Below, in pieces: positions 2,531 through 58,926 of a stretch of DNA of 64,000 nucleotides; positions within the stretch are counted from its first letter, which is position 1, and every line of letters begins with the position of its first letter. The stretch lies in the NCBI GenBank assembly GCA_945946665.1, contig CAMEWO010000010.1, forward strand, positions 1,781-65,780, read 5' to 3'. The position numbers and the translations under genes were made by a program. The DNA comes from an uncultured Eubacterium sp. (GTDB lineage: Bacteria > Bacillota > Clostridia > Lachnospirales > Lachnospiraceae). The notes below the pieces were generated by a model, which searched no databases, was not told where the DNA came from, and saw nothing but the letters and a program-made list of their open reading frames with translations.

Positions 2531-2970
2531 CAGCAACACCATTTTTTACACCAACACAGTGGTTTATGCCTAAACTGGTCCGATAGGGCAGGGTTTACTG
2601 GAATTCGGAGTTTGTCTGGGTGTCCGGCTGCTTATGGGGTTTAGAACTGCTAATTGGGTAAATACAATTGGAACTACGAAGAGAATCATCAGCGCTGTGG
2701 CATGTATGAATTACACTCGCTTATTTCAGCAATGGTTCAAAACTCAGCCCTACGGGCTTCAAACAGTTGCCCCATTGCTGGCGAAGTGTAATCCAACATA
2801 CCCCACCGCTTGTGATTTCTTCTAATGTTCCAATTGTATTTACCCAATTAGCAGTTCTAAACCCCATAAGCAGCCGGACACCCAGACAGACTCCGAATTC
2901 CAGTAAACCCTGCCCTATCGGACCAGTTTAGGCATATACTACTGTGTTGGTGTAAAAACTGGTGTTGCTG
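2531..2970. repeat. Giant palindromic element A (144-bp arms around a 152-bp core)
   Basis: 2531-2674 is the reverse complement of 2827-2970 with 4 mismatches; core 2675-2826. Confidence 0.95.
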
Positions 2971-3133
2971 AAAGTTATACCCTTAGTAAATTAGCATAAT
3001 ATTTTGAGAAAAATGGTTAGTGTTTCTGCTCTTTGCTGTCACTTTCGACAGATGATGTAGTGGCAGGCTGAGTCAGAACTTACTGGGGTGGGTGGGGTGT
3101 TCTTGCATTTTTGTTGTTTTGGAAGAGACAGTA

Positions 3134-3630
3134 GTAACTGGCTGAGCAGGATTTAACGGAAGTATGGCCGGTCTGCACCCTTATATAAAAAGTCACATTT
3201 AGAAGAAATCTTAGCGCTGCGGTGTGTATGGATTACACTTCGCCAGCAACTGTACGGATTATGGTAGTCCAGGCTGTACCCTTAAATAGAAAAAAGTCAC
3301 ATTTAGAAGAAATCTTAGTGCTGCGGTGTGTATGGATTACACTTCGCCAACAACTGACCGATTGTTTGAGTCCCGACAGGGGCGAGTTGAAGGGAAGTTG
3401 TTGAAATAAGCGAGTGTAATCCATATACATCGCAACACTTAGATTCTCTTCGTCGTGACTTTTTTCTATTTAAGGGTACAGCCTGGGCTGCCACAATCCG
3501 TGCAGTTGCTGAAATAAGCGAGTGTAAGACATATGCGTCGCAACGCTTAGATTCTCTTCGTCGTTCCAGGAAGGCAGCATATGTAGGTACACACAGGCCA
3601 TACTTCCGTTAATTCATGCCAGCTGGTTAC
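3134..3630. repeat. Giant nested palindromic element B (B-spacer-B-loop-A'-spacer'-A')
   Basis: B units 3187-3245 and 3291-3349; A' units 3403-3464 and 3511-3564; 45-bp spacers 3246-3290 and 3465-3509 complementary with 4 transitions; perfect 17-bp outer IR 3153-3169/3596-3612. Confidence 0.95.
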
Positions 3631-8311: not shown

Positions 8312-8599
8312 CCTACGATAGGTATGCGTGGATTATGGCAGTTCGACTGTACCCTTAAGTAGAAAAAAGTCACGACGAAGAGAATCTAAGCGTTGCGACG
8401 CATATGAATTACACTCGCTTATTTCGCGACCGCTCTCCAACTCGCCCCTGTCGGGGCTCAAACAATCCGAGCAGTCGCTGGCGAAGTGTAATCCATACAC
8501 GCCGCAGCGCTAAGATTTCTTCTAAATGTGACTTTTTTCTACTTAAGGGTACAGTCAGAGCTGCCGTAATCCACGTATACCTATCTTATGTATCGTAGG
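8312..8599. repeat. Giant palindromic element C (arm-A-loop-B'-arm')
   Basis: 8317-8373 pairs with 8528-8585 (3 transitions, 1 indel); A unit 8364-8425, B' unit 8479-8537. Confidence 0.95.
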
Positions 8600-8879
8600 C
8601 TGTATGTGCGTCTGGCTGCTTACGGGACCTAGGGCTGCTGAACCGGTAAATGCAATTGGGACATTAGAAGAAATCACAAGCGGTGGGGTATGTTGGATTA
8701 CACTTCGCCAGCAATGGGGCAACTGTTTGAAGCCCGTAGGGCTGAGTTTTGAACCATTGCTGAAATAAGCGAGTGTAATTCATACATGCCACAGCGCTGA
8801 TGATTCTCTTCGTAGTTCCAATTGCATTTACCGGTTTAGTAGCCCTAGGTCCCATAAGCAGCCAGACACATATACAGCC
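8598..8879. repeat. Giant palindromic element D (65-bp arms; core is the exact reverse complement of the core of A)
   Basis: 8598-8662 vs 8815-8879, 6 transitions; core 8663-8814 equals the reverse complement of 2675-2826. Confidence 0.95.
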
Positions 8880-54380: not shown

Positions 54381-56147
54381 ATGGTAGATTTTAAGGCGGA
54401 TGAGAACCTTAGCGTTCTCAACCATTCCTGTGCACATCTTATGGCTCAGGCTGTAAAACATCTTTATCCTAATGCAAAGTTCTGGGTAGGACCTGTTGTA
54501 TCCGAAGGGTTTTATTATGATATTGACCTGGGAGATGAGGTAATTAACCAGGATGATATTGCAGCCATCGAGAAAGAGATGAAAAAGGTTGCCAAGGAAG
54601 GCAAGAAGATTATAAGAAGAGAGGTTTCCAAGGCTGAGGCATTGGAGATGTTCAAGGGTGATGAATATAAGCTGGATCTTATATCTAACCTTGAGGATGG
54701 CAATATTACTGTATATGACCAGGGGGACTTCACAGACCTCTGTCGTGGACCTCACGTAGATAATGTTAAGCTTTGCAGACATTTTAAGTTAATTAAGCAT
54801 TCTGGTGTATACTGGAAGGGCGATGCCAATAACCGTGTACTTCAGAGAATTTATGGAGTATGTTTCCCAACAGCAGAGGAGTTGGAGGATCACCTTAAGC
54901 TTCTTGAGGAGGCGAAGGAACGTGACCATAGAAAGATTGGCAAAGATATGCAGCTTTTCATGGTTGATGATCTTATTGGACGAGGACTTCCAATGTTTCT
55001 GCCAAAGGGATATACAATATGGCAGGAGCTGGAGAACTACATTAAGGAGAAGGAGAGAAAGCTTGGCTATCTCCATGTTATGACTCCTTGTGTTGGTACA
55101 GTTAACCTTTATAAGACTTCAGGCCATTGGGATCATTATAAGGAGAATATGTTCCCAGCCATGGAGGTTGAGGGTGAATCATTTGTATTAAGACCAATGA
55201 ACTGCCCACACCACATGATGATATATGCTAACAGAATGCATTCATATAAGGATCTTCCTATAAGAATAGGTGAGATTGCCCATGACTTCAGATTTGAAGC
55301 AAGTGGTACTCTTAAGGGAATTGAGAGAGGACGTCATTTCTGTCAGAATGATGCCCATCTGTTCGTAACTCCTGAGCAGATTGAGGATGAGTTCTCTAAG
55401 GTTGTAGACCTTATATTCCAGACATATAAAGATTTTAATATTACAGATTACCGCTGTGTTCTTTCTCTTAGAGATCCGGCAGATACAACCAAGTATCATC
55501 AGGACGATGAGATGTGGAACAAAGCTGAAGATGCCTTAAGAAAGGTTCTTAATGACCTTGGAATCGAGTATACAGAGGAAATTGGCGAGGCTGCATTCTA
55601 CGGACCTAAGCTTGATGTTAATGTTAAACCTGCTGTTGGTAATGAGTATACACTTTCGACATGCCAGCTTGATTTCTGTCTGCCAGCAAAGTTTAATCTT
55701 ACTTACATTGACAAGGATGGAGAGAAGAAGACACCTGTAGTTCTTCACAGGGCAATTCTTGGTTCTCTTGACAGATTTATGGCGTATATCTTAGAGGAGA
55801 CTAAGGGTAACCTGCCATTATGGCTTGCACCTGTACAGGCAAGGGTTCTTCCTGTTAAGAATGATGATGTGGAATTGTCTGCATATGCTAAGGAAGTATA
55901 TGATATCCTTAATGACAATAACATAAGGGTTGAACTTGACGACCGTTCTGAGAAGCTGGGATACCGTATGCGTGAAGGACAGATTCAGAAAGTTCCATAT
56001 CTTCTGGTTCTTGGTAATAATGAGAAGAATGACAGAACAGTTTCTTTCAGACTGCATGGACAGCAGGAGACTACAACGGTTGGACTTGATGAGTTTGTTG
56101 GAAAGCTTAAGAGGGAAATTGAAACAAAAGGTCATGACGAAAACTAA
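54381..56147 (+). CDS. thrS: Threonine--tRNA ligase, short form without TGS domain
   Basis: HSCAH, DLCRGPH, RDHRKIG, RPMNCP, FYGPK, HRAILGS. Confidence 0.97.
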   Translation: MVDFKADENLSVLNHSCAHLMAQAVKHLYPNAKFWVGPVVSEGFYYDIDLGDEVINQDDIAAIEKEMKKVAKEGKKIIRREVSKAEALEMFKGDEYKLDLISNLEDGNITVYDQGDFTDLCRGPHVDNVKLCRHFKLIKHSGVYWKGDANNRVLQRIYGVCFPTAEELEDHLKLLEEAKERDHRKIGKDMQLFMVDDLIGRGLPMFLPKGYTIWQELENYIKEKERKLGYLHVMTPCVGTVNLYKTSGHWDHYKENMFPAMEVEGESFVLRPMNCPHHMMIYANRMHSYKDLPIRIGEIAHDFRFEASGTLKGIERGRHFCQNDAHLFVTPEQIEDEFSKVVDLIFQTYKDFNITDYRCVLSLRDPADTTKYHQDDEMWNKAEDALRKVLNDLGIEYTEEIGEAAFYGPKLDVNVKPAVGNEYTLSTCQLDFCLPAKFNLTYIDKDGEKKTPVVLHRAILGSLDRFMAYILEETKGNLPLWLAPVQARVLPVKNDDVELSAYAKEVYDILNDNNIRVELDDRSEKLGYRMREGQIQKVPYLLVLGNNEKNDRTVSFRLHGQQETTTVGLDEFVGKLKREIETKGHDEN

Positions 56148-56724
56148 ATTATAAAGCAAGTGCAGTGGTTGTTGGTGGAAAACTGACAACCACTGATTTT
56201 TTTGACTAAAGGACGCATGGTACCTGCATACTTAAATTGAAAAAGTCACTACGAAGAGAATCTAAGTGTTGCGACATATATGAATTACACTCGCTTATTT
56301 CAGCAACTGTTTTCACTATGGCGATTTGGGCCACACACTTGAATAAAAAAAGTCACTACGAAGAGAATCTAAGTGTTGCGACATATATGAATTACACTCG
56401 CTTATTTCAACAACTGCCCGACAACTCGCCCCTGTTCGGGGCTCAGACATTCGTGCAGTTGTTGGCGAAGTGTAATCCATACACGCCGCAACACTAAGAT
56501 TTCTTCTAATGTGACTTTTTTTATTCAAGTGTGTGGCCCAAATCACCATAGTGAAGGCAGTTGTTGGCGAAGTGTAATCCATACACGCCGCAGCGCTAAG
56601 ATTTCTTCTAATGTGACTTTTTCAATTTAAGTGTGCAGGTACTATGCTGTTTATTCTGGAAAAATTAGTGGTTGTCAGTTTTTCTCAGTAGCCCTTATTT
56701 GGTTTATAATTTAGTTTTCTTCAT
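56134..56724. repeat. Giant nested palindromic element E (A-spacer-A-loop-B'-spacer'-B'), arms extending into the thrS 3' end
   Basis: A units 56240-56301 and 56347-56408; B' units 56463-56520 and 56565-56622; outer IRs 56215-56249/56613-56647, 56177-56201/56660-56684, 56134-56155/56703-56724. Confidence 0.95.
56163..56203 (+). terminator. thrS intrinsic terminator
   Basis: cagtggttgttggt-ggaaa-actgacaaccactg followed by a and T7. Confidence 0.75.
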
Positions 56725-56736
56725 TGGAAGGCAAAT

Positions 56737-56769
56737 AAAAAGCTGGCAGAGGGGGACTCTGCCAGCTTT
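56737..56769 (-). terminator. glnA terminator
   Basis: aaaaagctggcagag-gggga-ctctgccagcttt. Confidence 0.8.
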
Positions 56770-56814
56770 ATTAAAATGGAAGACAAATTCATATATATGA
56801 ATTTGGGTTTGTAA

Positions 56815-58926
56815 TTAAACCTCGAATAAGAGATCACCGTATGATGGGAATGGCCAGAATTCTTTGTCCACAATCATCTCAAGCTTATCAGCAGGAGCTC
56901 TTAAGGCATCCATAGTTGTCTTTACTGAATCTCTGTAAGCCTTAGCCTGTGCAGCTGCATCTGTAATCTGTGCGGCTTCGTCTGTAACTTTGATAAGAGT
57001 GGTTAATTGTGTCTTCATTTCCTTTAAGTAAGAAGATACTTCTGCAAGTAAATCGCTCTGGACAGAAGCATCAGCACCAGCCTCTTTAACAGCTGAAACT
57101 GAACCTGCAAGCTCTGTTGTGTAAGAGATTACAGCAGGGATAATCTGCTTGCTGGCTATATCAATCATAGACTTAGCCTCGATGTTGATAGCCTTTGAAT
57201 ATGCCTCGTACTGAATCTCAACTCTTGACTCAAGCTCTGCCTTAGTAAATACACCGAAGTCTTCAAATAACTTAACTGCCTTGTCTGTAACAAGAGCTGG
57301 GATTGCGTCAACCATTGATGTGATGTTAGGAAGACCACGTTTAGCAGCTTCTTCAACCCACTCATCTGAATAACCGTTACCATTGAAGATAATTCTCTTA
57401 TGCTCTGTGAAGAGCTTCTTGATTAAATCGTGTACAGCCATATCGAAGTTGTCAGCCTTCTCAAGTTCATCAGCGATTTCCTTGAAGCTTTCTGCAACAA
57501 TTGTATTAAGAACAACATTTGCTGGAGCAACTGAATCTGAAGAACCAAGCATACGGAACTCAAACTTGTTTCCTGTGAAAGCAAATGGAGATGTTCTGTT
57601 TCTATCTGTAGCATCCTTATTAAGATCAGGAAGAGTAGAAGCACCAGTCTTTAATTTACCTTTCTGGATTGAGCTTGTTGCATCACCCTTGTCAATAAGC
57701 TGTTCAATAACGTCCTCAAGCTGCTCACCAACGAACATTGATACGATTGCTGGAGGTGCCTCGTTAGCACCTAATCTGTGGTCGTTACCAACATTAGATG
57801 CAGACTCACGAAGAAGGTCAGCATGCTTATCAACAGCTTTCATGATTGCACCAAGTACAAGTAAGAACTGGATGTTCTCATGAGGTGTCTTACCTGGATC
57901 AAGAAGGTTGATACCATCATCTGTTATAATTGACCAGTTGTTGTGCTTACCAGAACCGTTAACTCCTGCAAATGGCTTCTCATGGAGAAGGCATACAAGA
58001 CCATGGCGATAAGCAGTCTTTTTTAATACTTCCATCATAAGCTGGTTGTTATCTGTAGCTGTGTTGCACTGTGCATAGATTGGAGCAAGCTCATGCTGTG
58101 CAGGAGCAACCTCGTTATGCTGTGTCTTGGCAGATACACCCATTTTCCATAATTCTTCGTTAACATCCTTCATGAATGCAGAAATTCTTTCTGGAATTGC
58201 ACCGAAGTAGTGGTCATCAAGTTCCTGACCCTTAGGAGGCATAGCACCGAAAAGTGTACGTCCTGTAAAGATAAGGTCTTTTCTCTGTAAATATTTTTCT
58301 CTGTCTACAATGAAGTACTCCTGCTCAGCACCAACTGATGGAGTAACCTTCTTTGAAGTTGTGTTACCAAAGAGTTTTAAGATTCTTAATGCCTGTGTGT
58401 TAATTGCGTCCATTGAACGAAGAAGAGGAGTCTTCTGGTCAAGAGCTTCGCCTGTATATGAGCAGAAAGCAGTTGGAATGCAGAGAGTAGCACCGGCAGC
58501 ATCCTCACGAACGAAAGCTGGAGATGTGCAATCCCATGCTGTATATCCTCTTGCCTCAAATGTTGCTCTTAATCCACCTGATGGGAATGATGAAGCATCT
58601 GGCTCGCCCTTGATAAGCTCTTTTCCGGAGAACTCCATAAGAACCTTTCCGTTTTCCTTAGGAGCAGAGATAAATGAATCATGCTTCTCAGCAGTTGTTC
58701 CTGTAAGTGGCTGGAACCAGTGTGTATAGTGTGTAGCACCCTTCTCAATAGCCCAGTCCTTCATTGCGTTGGCAATTACGTCGGCATCAGCCAGTTCAAG
58801 TTCCTTCTCACCAGACATAACAGCCTTGAGATTCTTGTAAACGTTCTTTGGCAGACGTTCTTTCATTACTGTGTCATTAAACACGTTCTCGCCGAAAATG
58901 TCGGCAACATTGAATAATTCACCCAT
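56815..58926 (-). CDS. glnA: Glutamine synthetase type III
   Basis: [53 protein letters not shown]. Confidence 0.96.

What the first reader, a model, noticed from the sequence alone, without database searches (positions are those of the whole stretch)
56134..56724. Element E contains an inverted copy of the thrS stop codon and terminator half: arms appear to capture flanking host DNA
Seen: atgacgaaaacTAAattataaa (56134-56155, last thrS codons) matches the reverse complement of 56703-56724 at 21 of 22 positions. The 3' half of the thrS terminator (56177-56201) matches the reverse complement of 56660-56684 at 23 of 25. One difference affects a base that pairs in the terminator on the left copy, suggesting the left is original and the right a drifted copy. 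Inference: insertion or maintenance copies one flank onto the other side in inverted orientation (snap-back or template-switch synthesis). That would explain the locus-specific arms and differ from target-site direct repeats. The copy could also compete with terminator folding.
Basis: partly seen in the sequence, partly recalled or inferred. Interest (0 to 1): 0.75.

Follow-up and report, generated by a model that had tools for sequence, protein, structure and literature searches.

The report
Giant hairpin element mirrors thrS end
A repeated giant-hairpin DNA element downstream of the threonyl-tRNA synthetase gene carries, on its far side, a mirror-image copy of that gene's last codons and half of its terminator, and at several other places in this genome the same element family has extended its stem by mirroring neighbouring gene ends.

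Summary
Observation confirmed. 56134-56155 matches the reverse complement of 56703-56724 at 21/22, and 56177-56201 matches that of 56660-56684 at 23/25. Both lie on the element's own axis (score 36 against 8.7±1.5 in shuffles).

The thrS end is native: congeners without the element keep the same stop position and lack the copy. So the right arm holds an inverted copy of host DNA.

E is one of about 35 loci of a giant-hairpin family found only in two sister pig-gut 'Eubacterium' species. It has no Rfam match, and the genome has no Y1 transposase. Each copy has a conserved imperfect core of about 160 nt and locus-specific, near-perfect arms that abut gene 3' ends. Three more loci mirror native gene ends.

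Between the sister species, 13 of 15 inner-arm substitutions appear on both arms. Strains also differ by an in-register block replacement. Arm-to-arm copying therefore continued long after insertion.

Best reading: fold-back or template-switch copying seeded by the hairpin. Still unresolved:
- whether copying also acts at insertion;
- where the inner arms come from;
- a conspecific empty site, which I did not find.

Competition with the terminator is unsupported. Unchecked notes from this scan describe the same architecture in unrelated phyla.

The parts
54381..56147 (+). thrS (threonyl-tRNA synthetase, 588 aa). Its last 14 bases, including the stop, lie in the left arm.
   Evidence: ORF. Pfam tRNA_SAD, tRNA-synt_2b and HGTP_anticodon on the identical product. 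The 3' end is homologous, with the stop at the same codon, in G018, G020 and G019.
56134..56159 (+). Left outer arm, block 1: the last thrS codons, TAA and 12 nt downstream. This is the original host sequence.
   Evidence: I7. Native by outgroup comparison.
56160..56178 (+). Unmatched block on the left: the 5' half of the thrS terminator stem. It has no counterpart on the right (56683-56698).
56163..56203 (+). thrS intrinsic-terminator-like hairpin with its T-run.
   Evidence: 14 pairs, then a T-run. A metatranscriptome contig covers thrS up to 56218.
56179..56201 (+). Left outer arm, block 2: the terminator loop, 3' stem half and T-run. Original.
   Evidence: I8.
56215..56249 (+). Left family-conserved arm, ending in ...AAAAAGTCAC. 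This is where the element proper begins.
   Evidence: I2. It is shared with other copies of the GTCAC subfamily.
56227..56416 (+). Two tandem L half-units with a 107-nt period.
   Evidence: D1. Strains carry one or two.
56417..56454 (+). Apical region, with a small GCCCC/GGGGC hairpin.
56455..56635 (+). Two tandem R half-units with a 102-nt period.
   Evidence: D2. Strains carry one or two.
56613..56647 (+). Right family-conserved arm. This is where the element proper ends.
   Evidence: I2.
56660..56682 (-). Right outer arm, block 2: an inverted copy of the thrS terminator loop, 3' half and T-run.
Evidence: I8 (22/23).
56699..56724 (-). Right outer arm, block 1: an inverted copy of the last thrS codons, the stop and 12 nt.
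   Evidence: I7 (24/26). Absent from the element-free congeners G018 and G020.
56739..56769 (-). glnA terminator-like hairpin. It lies outside the palindrome and is flanked by the direct repeat TGGAAGrCAAAT (56725-56736 and 56776-56787).
56815..58926 (-). glnA (type III glutamine synthetase, 703 aa), convergent with thrS.
   Evidence: Pfam GSIII_N and Gln-synt_C.

Best explanation
Element E proper spans about 56215-56647. It is one copy of a lineage-specific family of giant hairpin-forming DNA elements. Each copy has a conserved, deliberately imperfect core of about 160 nt, and E carries two nested or tandem units of it.

The stretches outside it are host DNA: 56134-56214 on the left and 56648-56724 on the right. 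The left one is the native thrS end and terminator. Two patches of the right one have been rewritten as the reverse complement of the left.

The most likely mechanism is DNA-level fold-back or template-switch synthesis nucleated by the hairpin. A nascent or resected 3' end pairs across the stem, copies the opposite arm outward, and returns to its template. This extends and re-homogenises the palindrome in register, patch by patch.

Shown:
- the copy exists and is inverted;
- the donor side is native;
- the same thing happened at three other loci;
- arms kept co-changing after the two species split;
- strains differ by an in-register block replacement.

Inferred:
- the enzymology (replication slippage or template switch, as against break repair);
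- that the core hairpin is what seeds the copying;
- that coding sequence limits outward growth.
For: Geometry and significance of the copy.

thrS end native, and copy absent where the family is absent.

Family census: about 35 loci.

Arm-to-arm identity: median 0.93 in the first 60 nt outside the core, decaying to background by about 150 nt.

Palindromes and the core: 59 of 64 long-palindrome groups in the genome contain the core.

Source of the arms: arms have no other copy in the genome.

Position: elements abut gene 3' ends, mostly between convergent genes.

Locus L029 1501-2022: the outgroups have only a 32-nt gap between the same two genes. The last 15 native bases of the DHHW-domain gene recur inverted (24/24 with the added tail) at the far end of a 545-nt insert.

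Locus L028: a native gene end is mirrored on the other side.

Locus L027: the last roughly 45 coding bases of the convergent trpB2 and MATE genes are inverse-complementary in this genome (score 16; 0 of 2000 shuffles reach it). In G005 they are not (score 6). Both proteins keep ortholog-like C-termini.

Concerted evolution: 13 of 15 inner-arm substitutions between G000 and G019 are mirrored on both arms.

Strain haplotypes: two haplotypes of equal length (520 nt) differ by wholesale replacement of a roughly 45-nt block of one arm. In one haplotype the block complements the other arm.

Literature: template switching is known to homogenise and expand inverted repeats (PMC5941160, PMC13100816, PMC8794818).
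Against: - No pre-insertion site at high identity was found for any copy, so the timing (at insertion or later) is unknown.
- The three 'empty' sites in G000 for G019 copies all look like deletion remnants.
- The E copy is patchy, with two unmatched blocks. A single snap-back would not give that without later change.
- The conserved mismatches and the bulge in the core are not corrected by the process invoked for the arms, which needs selection or a positional rule.
- Inner arms differ completely between sister species at one orthologous locus and between strains. Conversion alone does not explain this.
- Known template-switch tracts are far shorter than 100-200 nt.
- No experiment was done, and no read-level joint was seen.
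Confidence: 0.6

Rival explanations
1. One-step origin. The inverted flank copy is made once, during integration of the element, for example by hairpin or target-primed synthesis or by fold-back repair of the break into which it inserted. The patches seen today are what drift has left.
For: The outermost block at L029 is perfect (24/24) while the middle blocks are diverged. The insert at L029 added the copy rather than overwriting existing DNA, since the outgroup gap is only 32 nt. The flanks are inverted rather than direct repeats, which suggests an unusual integration chemistry.
Against: Mirrored substitutions after the species split and the in-register convergence of two coding ends with unchanged protein lengths both need later arm-to-arm copying. 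Unmatched blocks of nearly equal length fit patch conversion better than drift. No recent insertion was found to examine.
Confidence: 0.15
2. Homologous recombination between the quasi-complementary L and R halves, or between inverted copies of the element on sister chromosomes, produced an inverted duplication of the flank. No polymerase template switch is involved.
For: The core is flipped between G000 and G019 at an orthologous locus while the arms stay in place. The arms therefore do recombine. Unit number varies among strains.
Against: L and R are only about 80-85% complementary over about 60 nt. Recombination explains flipping and unit loss. It does not explain short in-register patches or extension into unique flank.
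Confidence: 0.1
3. The whole hairpin is a structured RNA, for example a 3'-UTR stabiliser or bidirectional terminator. Its long stem is kept paired by selection on compensatory mutations, and resemblance to the thrS end is a by-product.
For: Arms co-vary between species. Metatranscriptome contigs run from upstream genes into cores at other loci. The core has conserved bulges, as protein-binding RNAs do. Elements sit at gene 3' ends.
Against: Arms of 60-100 nt are perfectly Watson-Crick complementary with almost no wobble intermediates. Among the mismatches next to the core, 64 would be wobble pairs on one strand, 41 on the other, and 52 are transversions, so there is no clear strand signal. 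There is no Rfam match. Selection for pairing cannot create a 24/24 copy of a neighbouring coding end. thrS transcripts should stop at the terminator upstream of E.
Confidence: 0.08
4. The arms are terminal inverted repeats carried by the element, as in a MITE, and the thrS tail is supplied by the element.
For: Both G000 and G019 have an element after thrS and share the GHDEN tail.
Against: G018 and G020 lack the family yet have a homologous tail with the stop at the same codon. The arms are unique to each locus. No target-site duplication is present. There is no Y1 transposase in a genome that is 99.95% complete.
Confidence: 0.02

Closest known systems
Quasi-palindrome correction and inverted-repeat expansion by template switching (Ripley model; PMC5941160, PMC13100816, PMC8794818)
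   Same: One arm is rewritten as the reverse complement of the other, in register. Arms are homogenised over evolutionary time. Stems can be created or lengthened in single events.
   Different: Described tracts are a few to a few tens of bases at scattered inverted repeats. Here a repeated element of about 160 nt sits at the centre of arms of 60-200 nt at about 35 loci. The arms reach into coding 3' ends, while the core's own mismatches are spared.
REP/REPIN elements with RAYT transposases (PMC2817692)
   Same: Intergenic, hairpin-forming repeats built from two inverted half-units, often at gene 3' ends and between convergent genes.
   Different: The units are much longer. The arms are locus-specific. 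I looked for no GTAG-type tag. No Y1/RAYT gene is present in the genome.
MITEs and foldback elements such as Correia, ERIC, YPAL and RUP (from my own knowledge; general review PMC3184786)
   Same: Short non-coding repeats with inverted ends that fold into hairpins and sit near stop codons.
   Different: Those have element-borne terminal repeats and direct target-site duplications. Here the sequences next to the conserved part are inverted copies of local host DNA.
Coding palindromes in Nematomorpha mitochondrial genes (PMC6649704)
   Same: Long, near-perfect inverted repeats that extend into protein-coding sequence, with both arms readable as protein.
   Different: That is a mitochondrial system with no shared conserved core reported in the abstract I read, and an unrelated lineage.
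Earlier notes of this scan on other genomes (e1-2122447 in a CPR bacterium; e1-4747203 in Bdellovibrio-like bacteria)
   Same: A conserved hairpin core sits at the centre of a palindrome whose arms mirror native flanks such as stop codons and gene ends.
   Different: These are AI notes that I did not check. The cores are different and smaller, in unrelated phyla. I made no sequence comparison.

Membership tests
Template-switch (quasi-palindrome) conversion tracts | The novel tract equals the reverse complement of the facing arm, in register, and increases complementarity. | tested here: met
   E blocks at 24/26 and 22/23 on the common axis. Haplotypes 1 and 2 at L029 have equal length with one block replaced. 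The trpB2 and MATE ends converge in register with protein lengths kept.
Template-switch (quasi-palindrome) conversion tracts | Concerted evolution of the two arms across related genomes. | tested here: met
   13 mirrored against 2 unmirrored substitutions in 64 inner-arm columns between G000 and G019.
Template-switch (quasi-palindrome) conversion tracts | Dependence on replication, polymerase or fork direction. | not testable with these tools
   This needs a reporter assay or mutation-accumulation data.
MITE / foldback transposon | Direct target-site duplication at the element ends. | tested here: not met
   The sequences flanking the conserved part are inverted repeats, not direct ones. The only direct repeat nearby flanks the glnA terminator, not E.
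MITE / foldback transposon | Terminal inverted repeats shared by all copies. | tested here: inconclusive
   The GTCAC subfamily shares about 45-nt arms and the GGAAC subfamily shares only about 10 nt. Beyond that the arms are unique.
MITE / foldback transposon | A cognate autonomous element or transposase. | tested here: inconclusive
   No Y1_Tnp in G000. I did not search for other transposase families. No insertion polymorphism with a clean empty site was found.
REP/REPIN-RAYT | A RAYT (Y1 HUH transposase, PF01797) gene in the genome. | tested here: not met
   0 matches in G000, which is 99.95% complete, while 8 of 15 congeners have one.
Curated structured RNA families (Rfam 15) | A match at or near the gathering score. 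| tested here: not met
   0 matches at gathering score over the window. The permissive scan gave only a chance-level miRNA hit.
Intrinsic terminator (thrS) | A G+C-rich stem-loop followed by a T-run directly after the stop. | tested here: met
   56163-56195 plus a T-run. An RNA contig ends at 56218 (weak).

The most novel reading that the evidence does not exclude
The conserved core is a self-propagating palindrome seed. It would be a transposase-less class of bacterial selfish DNA that settles at gene 3' ends or in existing hairpins. It then builds its own long stem by fold-back copying of whatever lies beside it, rewriting terminators and even the last codons of neighbouring genes. The same architecture may have arisen or spread in unrelated phyla, as unchecked notes of this scan suggest.
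Probability: 0.3. Interest if true: 0.85.

Novelty: new variant of a known kind. Interest (0 to 1): 0.62.

Why it matters
If a repeated hairpin core reliably drives inverted copying of adjacent DNA, several things follow.
- It is a natural, locus-independent generator of long palindromes in bacteria. It would create and replace terminators, remodel 3' UTRs and alter protein C-termini.
- It would show template switching working at a scale of 100 nt or more, with a defined seed. That makes the process testable by cloning the core between non-complementary flanks.
- It would explain why assemblies of these genomes break at such loci.
- It warns annotators that sequence resembling a gene end on the 'wrong' strand may be a mirrored copy.

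Tried and rejected
- **Rfam scans:** nothing at gathering score or at permissive thresholds.
- **Looking for the missing right half of the G019 element after thrS:** it is not in that 77%-complete MAG, so the arm-equals-own-flank test could not be run there.
- **Conspecific empty sites:** every ThrS- or GlnA-identical contig that spans the interval carries E, and all ten GlnA-anchored loci carry the L029 element. Two look-ups with other window proteins found no record.
- **ThrS cluster members:** too distant or mis-clustered to help.
- **'Empty' sites in G000 for three G019 copies:** all turned out to be deletion remnants or arm-only palindromes, not pre-insertion sites. They do not date the copying.
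- **The idea that arms are carried over from donor loci:** rejected for this genome, since no arm matches anything outside element loci.
- **My first reading that the MATE C-terminal 13 residues are encoded by a captured copy:** corrected. The G005 ortholog has a homologous tail of nearly the same length, so this is in-register convergence, not replacement by insertion.
- **A fixed polarity (host flank always next to the L half):** dropped, because the core is flipped between species.
- **Mismatch spectrum as a test of RNA strand:** no clear signal.
- **Taxonomic and phage distribution:** an exact 17-mer of the core occurs as a real element only in G019 among 185,579 species representatives, and in no viral contig.

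Full report
**The observation.** The sequence is as described.
- The repeat finder returns 56134-56159 against 56699-56724 (26 nt, 92% complementary) and 56179-56201 against 56660-56682 (23 nt, 96%).
- Both pairs share the symmetry axis of the rest of the locus (about 56430). The interval 56134-56724 is therefore a single interrupted palindrome. As single-stranded DNA it folds into one hairpin of -189.7 kcal/mol, z = -24.
- Aligning the left flank to the reverse complement of the right flank scores 36. In 2000 shuffles the mean is 8.7, sd 1.5 and maximum 17.
- The left copy covers the last four thrS codons and the stop, then the loop, 3' stem half and T-run of a terminator-like hairpin at 56163-56195.
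- The copy is not continuous. Two unmatched blocks of nearly equal length (19 against 16 nt, and 13 against 12 nt) separate the matched ones.
- The same arms are present in independent pig-gut metagenome assemblies, so this is not an assembly artefact.

**What E is.** E belongs to a repeat family with about 35 loci and about 40 apical hairpins in this 2.45-Mb genome.
- Every copy has a conserved core of about 155-165 nt made of an L half and an R half. The halves are imperfectly complementary, with the same mismatches and the same bulge in all copies.
- Outside the core, one subfamily shares about 45 nt of arm ending in GTCAC, and E belongs to it. Another shares only about 10 nt ending in GGAAC.
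- Beyond that the arms are unique to each locus yet nearly perfect. Median arm-to-arm identity is 0.93 in the first 60 nt, falling to background by about 150 nt.
- E proper spans about 56215-56647 and contains two nested or tandem units. Conspecific strains carry 1L+1R, 1L+2R or 2L+2R, all with the same outer arms.
- There is no Rfam match.
- The genome has no Y1 transposase.
- Among 24 congeners the family is seen only in this genome and its nearest relative G019.
- An exact core 17-mer finds true copies only in G019 ('uncultured Eubacterium sp.' MAG) among 185,579 species representatives, and in no viral contig.
- Elements sit almost always at gene 3' ends, commonly between convergent genes. 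In about 20 of 32 loci a stop codon lies within 16 nt of, or inside, the palindrome (my reading of the table).
- 59 of 64 long-palindrome groups in the genome contain the core.

**Which copy is the original.**
- G019 (92% identical in thrS) ends thrS with the same codons.
- G018 and G020 (about 83% identical, no element) end it with a homologous GHEEA tail and the stop at the same position. They are followed by their own terminators and a small gene that this genome lacks.
- Their thrS-glnA intervals hold no inverted copy of their thrS end (scores 9 and 10, against 36 here).
- The left sequence is therefore native and the right one is a copy.
- One caveat applies. These are other species, and no conspecific genome without E was found.

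**Is it general.** Three more loci pass the same test.
- *L029 1501-2022.* G005 and G018 have only 32 nt, a bidirectional terminator, between the same two convergent genes. Here there are 545 nt. The native last bases of the DHHW-domain gene recur inverted, 24/24 including a short added tail, at the far end.
- *L028.* The native end of the gene on the right is mirrored on the left.
- *L027.* The last roughly 45 coding bases of the convergent trpB2 and MATE genes are inverse-complementary (score 16; 0 of 2000 shuffles reach it). In G005, where the genes are not neighbours, they are not (score 6). The trpB2 end is conserved in three outgroups, and the MATE tail remains ortholog-like in length. 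The similarity therefore arose by in-register rewriting, not by insertion.
- Arms have no second copy elsewhere in the genome. They are not carried in from extant donor loci.

**Evidence on mechanism.**
- Between G000 and G019, the 64-nt inner arms at L027 differ at 15 positions. 13 of these are changed on both arms in a complementary way. The outer, coding part keeps side-specific differences shared by both species. Arm-to-arm copying, or selection for pairing, therefore went on after the species split.
- At L029, conspecific strains carry two haplotypes of identical length (520 nt). A block of about 45 nt in one arm is wholly different between them. In one haplotype it complements the other arm, and in the other it forms a small local hairpin. 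A third haplotype has different inner arms and a different core subtype.
- At L027 the core is flipped and of another apical subtype in G019 while the arms stay in place. At L023 the inner arms are unrelated between the species while the outer arms are shared.
- Three G019 copies face 'empty' sites in G000. These are an internal deletion between TCTAA repeats that keeps the arms, an arm-only 45-nt palindrome, and a short hairpin that retains a 14-nt core fragment. These look like losses, not pre-insertion sites.
- Taken together, the data show recurrent, in-register, inverted copying between arms; recombination between arms, which flips the core; and deletion.
- They do not show when the first copy at a locus is made.
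- Template switching is known to homogenise and expand inverted repeats (PMC5941160, PMC13100816, PMC8794818), but at a much smaller scale.

**Rivals.**
- *Element-borne terminal repeats:* excluded by the outgroups.
- *A selected RNA stem:* cannot create a perfect copy of a neighbouring coding end, and it predicts wobble intermediates that are scarce. Cores are nevertheless present in metatranscriptome contigs that run in from upstream genes at other loci, so an RNA role for the core is not excluded.
- *A single event at integration:* remains possible for the first copy.
- *Competition with the terminator:* unsupported. The terminator precedes the element, and an RNA contig covers thrS only to 56218 (contigs show presence only).

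**Comparison and novelty.**
- The process matches quasi-palindrome template switching in kind.
- The family fails the tests for REPIN-RAYT, because there is no RAYT gene.
- It also fails the test for classical MITEs, because there is no direct target duplication.
- I found no description of such a family in the papers searched.
- Unchecked notes of this scan report the same architecture, with other cores, in a CPR bacterium and in Bdellovibrio-like genomes. I did not test those.
- I rate this a new variant of a known kind, of moderate to high interest.

Noticed in passing
window 56148-56814, compared with loci L019-L022 and L079-L084: Conspecific strains carry E with a thrS-glnA interval of about 457-465, 560 or 666 nt (1L+1R, 1L+2R or 2L+2R units), always with identical outer arms. 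The single-unit form has L-half bases that differ from both L units of the window.
   Followed up: partly
window 56725-56736 and 56776-56787: An 11/12 direct repeat, TGGAAGrCAAAT, brackets the glnA terminator hairpin (56739-56769). Outgroups have a single copy of this motif next to a different terminator. It looks like a small duplication or a terminator-cassette insertion, directly abutting the right end of the palindrome.
   Followed up: partly
window 56148-56772, compared with L003-L005: G018, G020 and G005 have a small gene of about 100 aa on the minus strand (my guess from its sequence: a Dabb-type stress-responsive domain protein). G005 also has a membrane transporter gene. Both lie between thrS and glnA. 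This genome has none of it, and no homology remains between 56148 and 56772.
   Followed up: partly
whole genome G000 (for example window 2531-3630 and 8312-8879): Where two elements are adjacent they are always in the same relative order, + then - (L R ... R' L'). This holds in 11 of 11 pairs, never the reverse.
   Followed up: no
L027:1501-1939 compared with L041: At an orthologous locus the core is inverted and of a different apical subtype (GCAACTG against CCAATGG stem) in the sister species, while the arms are retained.
   Followed up: partly
G000:C9:33951-34132; G000:C20:18004-18180; G000:C7:11374-11503: Core-less long palindromes. The first is an internal deletion of an element between TCTAA repeats. 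The second matches the outer arms of a filled site in G019, with flanks 99% identical. The third is a 57-nt-arm palindrome with a 14-nt loop.
   Followed up: partly
G000:C1:318245-318496: A 250-nt palindrome with an unrelated G+C-rich interior, possibly a second kind of hairpin element.
   Followed up: no
L029:1501-2022 compared with L079-L088 and L050: Three haplotypes of one element occur within a species whose GlnA is identical. G019 carries two elements in tandem at this site, one resembling haplotype 3 and the other haplotype 1. Here the DHHW-domain gene has lost its ancestral TAA and reads three further codons (GCT GCC TGA, the last a new stop), which is two more residues.
   Followed up: partly
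window 56248-56414 (loose ends): Metatranscriptome contigs of 1.0-1.2 kb end inside cores and carry the arms of other loci (the C10-69945 and C2-136950 elements). At least some elements are therefore transcribed as 3' extensions of upstream genes.
   Followed up: no
L039 and L035 compared with L023:883-1503: Next to the C6 element, G019 is 99% identical to G000 over 880 nt, then unalignable for about 620 nt, then 92% identical. This is a local recombination or replacement boundary.
   Followed up: no
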